Source of the DNA: an uncultured Candidatus Binatia bacterium
GTDB taxonomy: Bacteria; Desulfobacterota; Binatia; UBA9968; JAJDTQ01
Length of the DNA: 64,000 bases
Direction: 5' to 3'
NCBI GenBank assembly: GCA_965204235.1
Contig: OZ241979.1
Span: 2,530,216-2,594,215, forward strand
In this document: piece by piece, positions 42,101 to 43,951 of the stretch
How the letters are laid out: each line of letters begins with the position of its first letter
How positions within the stretch are numbered: position 1 is the first letter of the stretch
Position numbers: made by a program

Positions 42101-43951
42101 GGCGTCGCCCGGGCCATCGACCTGGGCAACGCCATGTTCTACCTCACGTTGCTGTTGGCCCAGCGCACGCCCGCGCCCGTGGAGTTGCGGGAAACGCTGG
42201 CCCGCAGGATCCTGGTGGAGACGTTGCAGGTCATAGACGGCCAGGAACAGGAGTTCGCCTTGCGGGCGAACCCGCATCCCACGCTGGATCAATACTTCAC
42301 CATGGTCGAAGCCAAGACCTCCCGGTTGTTCGTCCTGGCCACCGCGGGCAGCGCCGAAGTCCTCGGTCGGGACGCCCGGCTGCGGGACGGCCTCGGCGAA
42401 GGCGCGCGCCAGCTCGGCATCCTGTTCCAGATACAGGACGACCTGCTGGACCTGTACGGGGACAAGGGCCGGGAGCGGCGGGGCGGCGACATCGCCGAGG
42501 GGAAGCGGAGCATCCTGGCGGTCCACGCCCTGGAGAACGCGCCCCCGGACGATGCCCGGTGGCTCCTGGCGGTCCTCGACAAGGAACGGACCGACACGAC
42601 GTCGGACGACGTGGACAAGGTCATCGGGTTGTTCGACCGGCTCGGGTCGCTGTCCTTCGCGGTCGGGGAGATGCGCGCCCGCCGGCGGGCGGCGTTGGCC
42701 GCGGTGGCGGAGCAGCGGAGCCTTTCCACCCTGATGCAGGGTATCTCGGAAACGGTGCTGGATCCCATACGGGGGATCGTGCAGCGGTTCTCCTGAATTT
42801 TCCAGGGGGGTGACCCTTCGATGAAGATGTTCCCGGCCGGAGAGTGGGTGGACCGACCCGAGGTTCAGGAGGTCGGTCGGTAATGCGCGCCGACGGCCGC
42901 GGGGACCGGGAGCTGCGCCCCCTCCGCATCACGCCCGGCTTCATCAAGCACGCCGACGGTTCGGCGTTGATCGAGATGGGGGACACCCGGGTCATCTGCA
43001 CGGCCAAGATCGAGGACCGGGCGCCGCCGTTCCTGCGGAAGACGGGGAAGGGCTGGATCACTGCGGAGTACGGAATGTTGCCGTCGTCGTCGCCGACGCG
43101 CATCCCCCGGGAGGCCGCCCGGGGCCGGATGGGCGGCCGCACCCACGAGATCCAGCGGCTGATCGGACGCAGCCTCCGTTCGGTGGCCGACCTCCACTGC
43201 CTGGGGGAACGGACGGTGTGGCTGGACTGCGACGTCATACAGGCCGACGGCGGCACCCGGACCGCGTCCATCAGCGGCGCCTACGTGGCCCTGGCCGGCG
43301 CCTTGAAGGGGTGGGCGGCGAACCGGAGCGTGCCCCGGGGTCTGCTCAGGGACACCCTGGCCGCGGTGAGCGTCGGCGTGGTGGAAGGCAGGGCGGTGCT
43401 GGATCTGGACGCGGGCGAGGACAACAACGCCGACGTGGACATGAACTTCGTGATGACCGGGTCGGGGCAGTTCGTGGAGGTCCAGGGGACCGCGGAGAAG
43501 AAGCCCTTCGACGCCGACCGCCTCGACGAGTTGGTCGGTCTGGCGCGAACGGGCGTCCAGCGGATACTGGAGGTCCAGCAACGGGTCCTCCAGGAGTGGC
43601 GTCCGTCGTAGCATGGGCCTTCGGGGAGGTCCGCGGGGGCTTTGGCTTGGCTTCGAGGAACCTCTCCCGATGGAAAAACGCGTCCTTCGACTTCGCTTCG
43701 CTACGCTCAGGACGAACGGGACGATCGTTCAGGGTTTCCCTGACTTGATATCGCCGCGCCATGATGTAGAATGCAGTGTCTCCGTGACGGGGCGTAGCGC
43801 AGCCAGGTAGCGCACCTGCCTTGGGAGCAGGGGGTCGGCCGTTCGAATCGGCTCGCCCCGACCACGCCGGCCCGGCCGAGACGGCCCGCGGGTCGAGAAG
43901 GGTTCGGCGGGAGACCTCGAAGGAACGGTTCGACGCGCCAGTAGCTCAGGT

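What the first reader, a model, noticed from the sequence alone, without database searches (positions are those of the whole stretch)
43655..43740. Novel dispersed intergenic repeat (4 copies) with a conserved SD-ATG mini-ORF
A ~60-90 bp element, CGAGG..CCTCTCCC(G/T)ATGGAAAAGCGCGTCCTTCGACTTCGCTTCGCTACGCTCAGGACGAACGG, occurs at 30066-30160 (reverse, with a partial tandem duplication), 34806-34849, 43655-43740 and 53041-53125, always between or at the ends of genes. It carries two hairpins (GGCGCCTTTCC/GGAAAGGCGC and CGTCCT/AGGACG). In three of the four copies it also preserves a GAGG SD about 12 nt before an ATG that opens the same peptide, MEKRVLRLRFATLR(T/M)NG, with divergent tails. It could be a REP/MITE-like element, a small RNA, or a family of small arginine-rich peptides. 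Two copies adjoin adhesin or defence loci.
Basis: seen in the sequence. Interest (0 to 1): 0.55.

Follow-up and report, generated by a model that had tools for sequence, protein, structure and literature searches.

The report
Small IS5-type mobile repeats (MITEs)
The four repeats are copies of a small non-coding "jumping" DNA element (a MITE) that borrows the transposase of an IS5-family insertion sequence and has moved recently between strains; the apparent mini-gene inside it is a coincidence.

Summary
A 39-nt core occurs four times in the window with at most 1 mismatch (0 expected by chance), plus a partial fifth copy. It is only the middle of larger elements. Two window copies are complete. 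One is 110 bp (53006-53115, "type A") and one is 129 bp (34780-34908, "type B"). Each has 17-23 bp terminal inverted repeats starting GGAACCTCTGAACAAT and a 4-bp target-site duplication. The other two copies (30055-30186 and about 43624-43739) are decayed type A copies.

Evidence for transposition:
- In related genomes, 15 of 28 complete elements have perfect 4-bp flanking duplications. Offset controls gave 0 of 140.
- Two strains about 98.6% identical to the window have a clean empty site for copy 4.
- More distant relatives have a clean empty site for copy 2 and lack copies 1 and 3.

A 1.23-kb IS5-family insertion sequence has ends identical (17/17) to the element's inverted repeats. It occurs in a sister strain and in a related metagenome.

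The SD-ATG mini-ORF is not conserved. The ATG is present in 10 of 40 type-A-like copies, and a sister strain has a frameshift just after it. There is no Rfam match and no structural covariation beyond the inverted repeats. No RAYT was found.

Verdict: a new, recently active MITE family in uncultured Binatia. The one oddity is that its conserved core also occurs, in REP-like form, in other phyla.

The parts
53002..53005 (.). Left copy of the 4-bp target-site duplication (TTAC) of copy 4
   Evidence: The empty site in strains L107/L108 reads CCGTCTTACGTCTGG with a single TTAC.
53006..53115 (+). Copy 4: complete 110-bp type A MITE. Left inverted repeat 53006-53022, core 53056-53094, right inverted repeat 53099-53115.
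   Evidence: nhmmer aligned model positions 1-110, E=1e-33. Inverted repeats. Absent from two strains 98.5-98.8% identical.
53116..53119 (.). Right copy of the target-site duplication (TTAC) of copy 4
34780..34908 (+). Copy 2: complete 129-bp type B MITE. Ends are GGAAACCCCGGTCGAGC and GCTCGACTGACAAGGGTTTCC. Core at 34811-34849. Flanked by AATA (34776-34779) and GATA (34909-34912). It lies 17 nt upstream of the aceE start codon.
   Evidence: nhmmer type B model positions 3-140, E=7e-20. Relatives L104/L105 read TTTTGTAATA|TCC and TTTTGTAATA|TTTC with nothing inserted. Present with 2 substitutions in the sister strain.
43624..43739 (+). Copy 3: type A MITE with a decayed left end. The HMM aligns 43652-43739. 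Core at 43681-43719, right inverted repeat at 43723-43739. Its right end lies 5 nt upstream of the -35 hexamer of the promoter-like site of the tRNA-Pro cluster.
   Evidence: Promoter-like site TTGATA-16-TAGAAT at 43745-43772, conserved in L104/L105, which lack the element.
30055..30186 (-). Copy 1: type A MITE on the minus strand. Left inverted repeat 30170-30186, core 30098-30136, a 33-nt internal tandem duplication, and a decayed right end.
   Evidence: nhmmer aligned model positions 1-92 plus a second hit to positions 61-100. Absent from L104/L105.
30087..30119 (-). 33-nt tandem duplication inside copy 1. It is present in the window and absent from the sister strain. Placement is ambiguous within 30065-30130.
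   Evidence: Alignment of the window with L103.

Best explanation
[quoted passage not shown] They are short, non-coding, non-autonomous DNA transposons. A DDE transposase supplied in trans by an IS5-family insertion sequence recognises their terminal inverted repeats (GGAACCTCTGA[A/T]C[A/G]AT...). It cuts the element out or copies it and inserts it at a staggered 4-bp cut, which is repaired into a 4-bp direct duplication.

Two subfamilies are present: type A (about 110 bp) and type B (about 130-141 bp). They share the inverted repeats and a 39-nt internal core but differ in the rest of their interior. The interior is prone to tandem slippage, seen as a 33-nt unit in copy 1 and a 17-nt minisatellite in a relative. 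Copies decay at their ends after insertion, as in copies 1 and 3.

Shown: the inverted repeats, the duplications, insertion polymorphism at strain and species level, and the existence of an IS with matching ends. Inferred: that this particular transposase is the mobiliser, and that insertions next to promoters or start codons affect expression. The SD-ATG mini-ORF is a by-product of the conserved DNA.
For: (1) Architecture. In a related Binatia genome the core lies inside elements bounded by 17-23 bp inverted repeats.
(2) Target duplication. Of 28 elements with both ends, 15 have a perfect 4/4 flanking direct repeat and 7 have 3/4. Offset controls gave 0 of 140 perfect; binomial p is about 3e-29.
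(3) Empty sites. Copy 4 is absent from two strains 98.5-98.8% identical, where a single TTAC remains. Copy 2 is absent from two relatives whose AceE is about 84% identical, with the junction exactly at the duplication. Copies 1 and 3 are also absent from those relatives.
(4) Autonomous partner. A 1228-bp IS in the sister strain (L109 5334-6561) and an intact 1230-bp relative (L110 303-1532, 319-aa transposase) encode DUF772 + DDE_Tnp_1 proteins. JGI names relatives 66-71% identical 'IS5 family transposase'. The IS right end (reverse complement) GGAACCTCTGAACAATC is 17/17 identical to the type B inverted repeat. The IS left end GGAACCTCTGATTTATTC matches the left end of window copy 4 at 16/18. 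The L110 IS is flanked by CTTT/CTTA. A second IS5-family IS in a relative has a CTAG duplication.
(5) Copy number.
(6) No coding or RNA signal.
Against: The IS copy in the sister strain has a C-terminal frameshift and no flanking duplication, and it sits in a nest of IS fragments. No such transposase is encoded in the 64-kb window or in about 750 kb of related loci, so an active source in the window's own genome is not shown. Only 2 of the 4 window copies have both ends. The shared core does not come from the IS and occurs without these inverted repeats in other genomes, so the MITE model does not explain where the core came from. After removing one bait copy per locus, the core looks better conserved (about 95%) than the inverted repeats (77-86%), but n=5-6 and detection is biased towards the core.
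Confidence: 0.9

Rival explanations
1. REP/REPIN element. The core is a repetitive extragenic palindrome copied by a single-copy RAYT (HUH tyrosine transposase) acting on single-stranded hairpins, and the window copies are REP singlets.
For: On the opposite strand the core reads ...GAGC-GTAG-CGAAGCG.... In other phyla the same conserved flanks enclose GTAG followed by a variable GC-rich stem-loop (GGCCGAAGGCC, GGCCCATGTGGCC, GCGCCACCGGAGGTGGCGC, GCCCCGTAGGGGC), which is the GTAG-REP signature (definition in PMC3733652). In other Binatia genomes the core forms inverted doublets 15-20 nt apart, like REPINs. REPs nested in longer palindromes have a precedent.
Against: REP/REPIN transposition makes no target duplication and needs no terminal inverted repeats, yet the window-type elements have both, and the insertion junctions lie at the inverted-repeat ends rather than at the core. 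In the window copies the stem after GTAG is only 2 bp, against 6-13 bp in described families. phmmer with E. coli RayT found no hit at E<=10 in all stop-to-stop ORFs of the window plus about 750 kb around 139 copies. This is a weak test: one query, and the genomes were not scanned whole.
Confidence: 0.06
2. A family of small arginine-rich peptides (MEKRVLRLRFATLRTNG...) translated from an SD-ATG inside each copy.
For: GAGG about 12 nt upstream of an ATG, with the same 17 residues, in three window copies.
Against: The ATG occupies that position in 10 of 40 type-A-like copies, any start codon in 18 of 40, and ATG in 12 of 159 copies overall. Type B and the palindromic copies have an ATG in a different frame (MSASFD.../MASFDFASLRSGRT). 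The sister strain has a 1-nt deletion immediately after the ATG of copy 3, which shifts the frame. The ATG lies in the loop of the small CCC/GGG hairpin. The tails diverge. The identical peptide follows trivially from identical DNA.
Confidence: 0.02
3. A structured small RNA or cis-regulatory RNA motif (terminator, stabiliser or riboswitch-like).
For: Copy 4 folds better than shuffles on both strands (z = -2.7 and -2.9). The outer stem GTCCT/AGGAC becomes GCCCT/AGGGC in three bystander copies from other phyla, a compensatory change.
Against: No Rfam family at gathering score, or at E<=10 for copy 3. z-scores for the other copies range from +0.7 to +2.6. The consensus fold of 14 type A copies consists of inverted-repeat pairing plus invariant core pairs, with a covariation term of -0.35 kcal/mol. 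No terminator-like T run. Copies occur in both orientations relative to neighbouring genes. Binatia GCCCT variants keep AGGAC, so the change is uncompensated.
Confidence: 0.04

Closest known systems
Bacterial MITEs derived from or mobilised by IS5-family insertion sequences (general class reviewed in PMC10969869)
   Same: Size 110-141 bp, no coding capacity, terminal inverted repeats that match an autonomous IS, a 4-bp target duplication as in the IS5 group, intergenic location, tens to hundreds of copies, truncated REP-like derivatives, and presence/absence polymorphism between strains.
   Different: Beyond about 17-18 nt at each end, the interior is unrelated to the IS. Two subfamilies share an internal 39-nt core that also exists outside MITEs in other genomes. 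The duplicated target sites are varied (TTAC, TGAA, GTAA, AGAG and others) rather than the CTAG seen for the other IS5-family IS in a relative.
BrickBuilt MITE of Porphyromonas gingivalis (PMC4596501)
   Same: A MITE whose interior contains a tandemly repeating short unit. Strictly intergenic.
   Different: BrickBuilt is built around a 23-nt minisatellite as its main body. Here the tandem repeats (33-34 nt of the core's 3' half; a 17-nt unit in L004) are occasional expansions, and one is polymorphic between strains.
GTAG-tagged REPs / REPINs mobilised by RAYTs (PMC3733652, PMC3337134)
   Same: The core contains GTAG on one strand. In other phyla it carries a variable GC-rich hairpin right after GTAG. 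In other Binatia it forms inverted doublets with short spacers.
   Different: The window copies have inverted repeats and target duplications and only a vestigial hairpin. No RAYT was found nearby. The core carries long conserved flanks (CCGTTCGTCCTGAGC / GAAGTCGAAGGAC) that described REP families lack, and it was not found in that paper's text.
Anabaena variabilis GTAG-15 dimers nested in long palindromes (PMC3733652, section read)
   Same: A REP-like unit regularly embedded inside a longer inverted-repeat element.
   Different: There the outer palindrome was never found without the REP, and no transposase or target duplication was reported. Here the outer ends match an identified IS5-family IS and the duplications are documented.

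Membership tests
MITE (non-autonomous DNA transposon) | Small size (under about 300 bp) and no transposase gene | tested here: met
   110 and 129 bp in the window, 97-141 bp in relatives. No conserved ORF.
MITE (non-autonomous DNA transposon) | Terminal inverted repeats | tested here: met
   17-23 bp inverted repeats in copies 2 and 4 and in 28 related elements. Copies 1 and 3 keep only one good end.
MITE (non-autonomous DNA transposon) | Target-site duplication of fixed length | tested here: met
   15 of 28 perfect 4-bp repeats and 7 of 28 with 3/4, against 0 of 140 in offset controls. TTAC in copy 4; AATA/GATA in copy 2.
MITE (non-autonomous DNA transposon) | Multiple dispersed copies and insertion polymorphism (evidence of mobility) | tested here: met
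   At least 68 exact-core copies in one genome. Precise empty sites for copies 4 and 2; copies 1 and 3 absent in relatives.
MITE (non-autonomous DNA transposon) | An autonomous IS with matching ends in the same lineage | tested here: met
   IS in sister strain L109 5334-6561 and intact L110 303-1532. Ends 17/17 and 16/18 identical to the MITE inverted repeats.
MITE (non-autonomous DNA transposon) | Actual mobilisation by that transposase | not testable with these tools
   Needs a transposition or binding assay.
IS5 family (for the partner IS) | DDE_Tnp_1 catalytic domain with N-terminal DUF772, IS of about 1.0-1.5 kb, inverted repeats starting GGAA, 4-bp duplication | tested here: met
   Pfam PF01609 at 5e-29 and PF05598 at 7e-22. 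Sizes 1228 and 1230 bp. Ends GGAACC.... Flanks CTTT/CTTA (3/4) in L110; CTAG in the second IS5-family IS. The typical IS5-family values are from my own knowledge of ISfinder.
GTAG REP / REPIN | Terminal GTAG next to a 6-13 bp palindromic stem | tested here: not met
   The window copies read GTAG-CGAAGCG (2-bp stem), and GTAG lies inside the GTCCT/AGGAC loop. Variants in other phyla do have 4-8 bp stems after GTAG.
GTAG REP / REPIN | Associated RAYT gene flanked by the repeats | tested here: inconclusive
   No hit to E. coli RayT in the window plus about 750 kb of loci. Whole genomes could not be scanned.
GTAG REP / REPIN | Insertion without target duplication | tested here: not met
   4-bp duplications are present.
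Rfam ncRNA families | Match to a curated covariance model | tested here: not met
   Only tRNAs at gathering score in the 64 kb. Nothing at E<=10 in 43600-43790.

The most novel reading that the evidence does not exclude
The 39-nt core is not mere MITE filling. It would be a separate, ancient REP-like module of the form (G)YCCTTCGACTYCG - variable hairpin - CTACGCTCAGGRCGAACGG. The same frame, with exact 23-mers, occurs in Binatia, in Xanthomonadales including the isolate Lysobacter niastensis DSM 18481, and in Anaeromyxobacteraceae, Nitrospirales and Acidimicrobiia. It appears as singlets, as inverted doublets, or captured between IS5 ends. On this reading it is maintained by its own mobiliser (for example an unrecognised HUH/RAYT-type enzyme) or by a host function. 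The Binatia MITEs would then be chimeras in which a cut-and-paste transposon hitch-hikes on it, or carries it.
Probability: 0.25. Interest if true: 0.6.

Novelty: new member of a known kind. Interest (0 to 1): 0.3.

Why it matters
This gives a worked example of an active MITE/IS5 pair in Binatia, an uncultured lineage known only from metagenome-assembled genomes. One copy differs between strains about 98.6% identical, so the family is a usable strain marker and a source of regulatory variation. Copies lie 5 nt from the -35 of a promoter-like site conserved upstream of the tRNA cluster and 17 nt from the aceE start codon. The family also explains recurrent spurious small ORFs (MEKRVLRLRFATLRTNG, MASFDFASLRSGRT) that gene callers will annotate in these genomes. 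The unexplained cross-phylum core is a lead on how REP-like modules and cut-and-paste MITEs recombine.

Tried and rejected
- Rfam at gathering score on the window and at E<=10 on copy 3 gave nothing but tRNAs.
- Single-sequence folds had inconsistent z-scores.
- Plasmid collection, blastn with the type B consensus: no match.
- Viral contigs, exact 23-mer: no match.
- Metagenome scan with trigger factor to find close relatives: best hit only 33% identity, so useless for empty sites.
- Exact-protein look-ups with ClpP and ClpX: not on record. AceE and ribosomal protein S9 worked instead.
- Inverted-repeat pairs 0.8-3 kb apart in the loci, as candidate full-length IS, were just neighbouring MITEs.
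- A 1.1-kb multi-copy gene near palindromic copies encodes amidohydrolase-like paralogues (judged by eye from the translations, not scanned), not a transposase.
- tblastn with both IS5-family transposases found no copy in the window or the 94 loci.
- phmmer with E. coli RayT: no hit.
- Literature search by sequence strings found only 16S primer papers, because GCTCAGGACGAAC also occurs at the 16S 5' end. This is treated as coincidence.
- No paper links Binatota and MITEs.
- The L004/L036 comparison could not be used as an empty site because that spacer is a pile-up of several repeats.

Full report
**1. The observation**

The 39-nt string CGTCCTTCGACTTCGCTTCGCTACGCTCAGGACGAACGG occurs four times in the window:
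- 30098-30136 on the minus strand
- 34811-34849 on the plus strand
- 43681-43719 on the plus strand
- 53056-53094 on the plus strand

Each copy has at most one mismatch, and 100 dinucleotide-preserving shuffles gave none. Its last 15 nt occur once more at 30065-30079.

All copies are intergenic: dprA/trmFO, lipB/aceE, RNase PH/tRNA-Pro, and an AAA_21 ATPase/autotransporter-like gene. The reported coordinates cover only the middle of each element.

**2. What the element is**

An exact 23-mer from the core was scanned against one genome per species. Most hits are in metagenome-assembled genomes labelled Candidatus Binatia, or labelled Thermodesulfobacteriota, Deltaproteobacteria or Syntrophobacterales. 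Two of those non-Binatia labels were checked and both belong to the Binatia lineage: the AceE of OZ220710.1 is 83% identical to the window's, and L036 shares 84-88% DNA identity with a Binatia locus. One genome, OZ251459.1, has at least 68 exact copies.

Lining up the copies showed that in OZ251459.1 the core is the centre of two longer elements:
- Type A, about 110 bp: GGAACGTCTGATCGATTCCGGCTCGAGG..CCCTCTCCCTGTGGGAAAGCGCG-core-GGGCATTGTTCAGAGTTTCC
- Type B, about 140 bp: GGAACCTCTGAACAATCGGGACAGGGGGCATGAGCGCG-core-...GGATGTCTCGATTGTTCAGAGGTTCC

Both are bounded by 17-23 bp terminal inverted repeats.

Profile HMMs of the two types find exactly four elements in the window:
- 53006-53115: full type A
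- 34782-34907: full type B
- 43652-43739: type A lacking the left end
- 30186-30055: type A with an internal duplication and a decayed right end

**3. Evidence for transposition**

*Target duplications.* Among 28 elements with both ends, the 4 nt to the left and the 4 nt to the right are identical in 15 and match at 3/4 in 7. When both 4-mers are moved 4-8 nt outward, 0 of 140 are identical (binomial p about 3e-29). The duplicated sequences vary (TTAC, TGAA, GTAA, TAAG, AGAG and others).

*Related genomes.* AceE and ribosomal protein S9 gave access to syntenic DNA from a sister strain (L103/L109, 98.2-99.0% identical), from two further strains (L107, L108, 98.5-98.8%), and from two more distant relatives (L104, L105, AceE about 84%).

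*Copy 4.* L107 and L108 read CCGTCTTACGTCTGG. The window reads CCGTCTTAC[110 bp]TTACGTCTGG. This is a clean insertion with a TTAC duplication, and it is polymorphic within the species.

*Copy 2.* L104 and L105 read TTTTGTAATA|TCC and TTTTGTAATA|TTTC. The window reads TTTTGTAATA[129 bp]GATATCC. This is a precise insertion with AATA/GATA flanks.

*Copies 1 and 3.* Both are absent from L104 and L105.

*Internal slippage.* The 33-nt internal duplication of copy 1 is missing in the sister strain, so the interior also changes by tandem slippage. A type B copy in L004 carries about nine 17-nt repeats.

**4. The likely mobiliser**

The sister strain carries a 1228-bp insertion sequence at L109 5334-6561. 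It lies about 1 kb upstream of where copy 4 sits in the window, and it encodes a DUF772 + DDE_Tnp_1 protein. An intact relative 87% identical, with a 319-aa transposase, lies in L110 at 303-1532. One data source names relatives 66-71% identical 'IS5 family transposase'.

The IS ends compare with the MITE ends as follows:
- IS left end: GGAACCTCTGATTTATTCC
- IS right end, reverse complement: GGAACCTCTGAACAATCC
- The IS right end is 17/17 identical to the type B inverted repeat.
- Type A reproduces the asymmetry of the IS. Its left end is ..GATCAATTC and its right end is ..GAACAATCG. Window copy 4's left end matches the IS left end at 16/18.

L110 is flanked by CTTT/CTTA. A second IS5-family IS, 44% identical, occurs in relative L104/L106. 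It has ends GGAA(A/G)GTCTGAACAA and a CTAG duplication.

Past about 18 nt the MITE interior is unrelated to the IS, and the core is not in the IS. That this transposase moves the MITEs is an inference from the matching ends and duplication length. No copy of it lies in the window or in the 94 loci. The L109 copy has a C-terminal frameshift and no duplication.

**5. Rival readings**

*Peptide.* The ATG is at the mini-ORF position in 10 of 40 type-A-like copies and 12 of 159 copies overall. Other architectures place an ATG in another frame. The sister strain has a 1-nt deletion directly after the ATG of copy 3. The shared peptide is what identical DNA gives in any frame.

*Small RNA.* Rfam gave no hit. 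Fold z-scores ranged from -2.7 to +2.6. The alignment fold is just inverted-repeat pairing plus invariant core pairs, with a covariation term of -0.35. No terminator-like sites were found in or at the elements, apart from one chance-level minus-strand match inside copy 2.

*REP/RAYT.* No RayT-like ORF was found in the window plus about 750 kb. That is a weak test. More importantly, the duplications and inverted repeats do not fit REP or REPIN biology.

**6. The unexplained part**

Outside the OZ251459.1/window type of genome, 111 of 123 HMM hits are core-only. In other Binatia the core forms inverted doublets of the form ATGGCGTCC..core..N15-20..core'..GGACGCCAT.

The same frame occurs in Lysobacter niastensis (an isolate), Frateuria, Dyella, Anaeromyxobacteraceae, Nitrospirales and Acidimicrobiia. 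Bystander copies in four of these (Lysobacter, Frateuria, Anaeromyxobacteraceae, Acidimicrobiia) carry a variable GC-rich hairpin in the middle. Read on the other strand, this is GTAG followed by a stem-loop, which is the signature of GTAG REPs (PMC3733652). In the window copies that stem is vestigial (CGAAGCG).

After dropping one bait copy per locus, the core is about 95% conserved against 77-86% for the inverted repeats. However, n is 5-6 and detection favours the core.

The core may be an old REP-like module captured between IS5 ends. REP dimers nested in longer palindromes have been described in Anabaena. I could not test for a RAYT in whole genomes.

**7. Comparison and novelty**

All defining MITE features were tested and met, apart from actual mobilisation by the transposase, which these tools cannot test. 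The partner IS meets the IS5-family features. GTAG-REP membership fails for the window copies on stem length and on target duplication.

I found no description of this repeat, either by sequence strings (which returned only 16S primer coincidences) or by Binatota plus MITEs. MITEs with internal minisatellites (BrickBuilt, PMC4596501) and REP-like truncated MITE copies (PMC10969869) are known.

Verdict: an ordinary kind of object, a MITE, but a new and recently active family in an uncultured lineage, with a curious shared core.

- Confidence in the MITE reading: 0.9
- Interest: 0.3

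Noticed in passing
L109 4459-8040 (sister strain), L108 6734-7903; corresponds to window about 52000-53500: The spacer downstream of the AAA_21 ATPase gene is an insertion hot spot in this species. The sister strain has the ATPase gene truncated by a nest of an IS5-family IS and IS630-like (DDE_3) fragments. Strain L108 has a DUF4372+DDE_Tnp_1 transposase there. The window has MITE copy 4.
   Followed up: partly
L105 20500-20680: A different palindromic element of about 170 bp (arms TAGTGTGGTGTCTGGTTAATTCGCAGCATAAT...) sits between RNase PH and tRNA-Pro in a relative, at the same spacer where the window has copy 3. 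This looks like another MITE-like family.
   Followed up: no
L004 about 3440-3600 (OZ251459.1): A type B element carries about nine tandem copies of a 17-nt unit (GGGACAGGGGGCATGAG) in its left arm. The same spacer also holds a reversed core and other repeats.
   Followed up: no
L011, L025, L060, L074, L090, L004 (OZ251459.1), next to many core copies: A further recurring motif, CTTCCGGCTTTCGTGTGGGTAAGG(N)GGAGG, often lies just downstream of the elements. It is probably another dispersed repeat family that clusters with them.
   Followed up: no
window 12879-14776 and 53536-55484: DNA of strains L107/L108 that aligns to the autotransporter-like gene at 53.5-55.5 kb also aligns at 74-90% to 12.9-14.8 kb. 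The window therefore holds two paralogous large surface-protein genes.
   Followed up: no
window 22001-26000: GC content drops to 0.55-0.61 against about 0.69 elsewhere. This may be acquired DNA.
   Followed up: no
core positions, e.g. window 43705-43718: GCTCAGGACGAACG is identical to 14 nt of the 5' end of many bacterial 16S rRNA genes, just after primer 27F. This is why literature searches by sequence returned primer papers. It is treated as coincidence.
   Followed up: partly
L104 22432-22434: The IS5-family copy between tig and clpP in relative L104 has TGA where the intact copy (L106) has TGG (Trp) in the conserved ..LIPWERL.. motif, so that copy is a pseudogene.
   Followed up: partly
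L010, L013, L015, L024, L040, L042, L077 (other Binatia genomes): In many palindromic doublets one arm has 23 nt (CCTTCGACAAGCTCAGGACAGGC) inserted exactly between GAGC and GTAG of the core. This creates a 9-bp hairpin GTCCTGAGC/GCTCAGGAC. It is a recurrent structured variant that no model here explains.
   Followed up: no
L040 1769-4259, also L012, L048, L069: Tandem paralogues (85-94% identical) of a 343-aa protein that looks amidohydrolase-like by eye (not scanned against a family library), separated by spacers that carry palindromic core doublets.
   Followed up: partly
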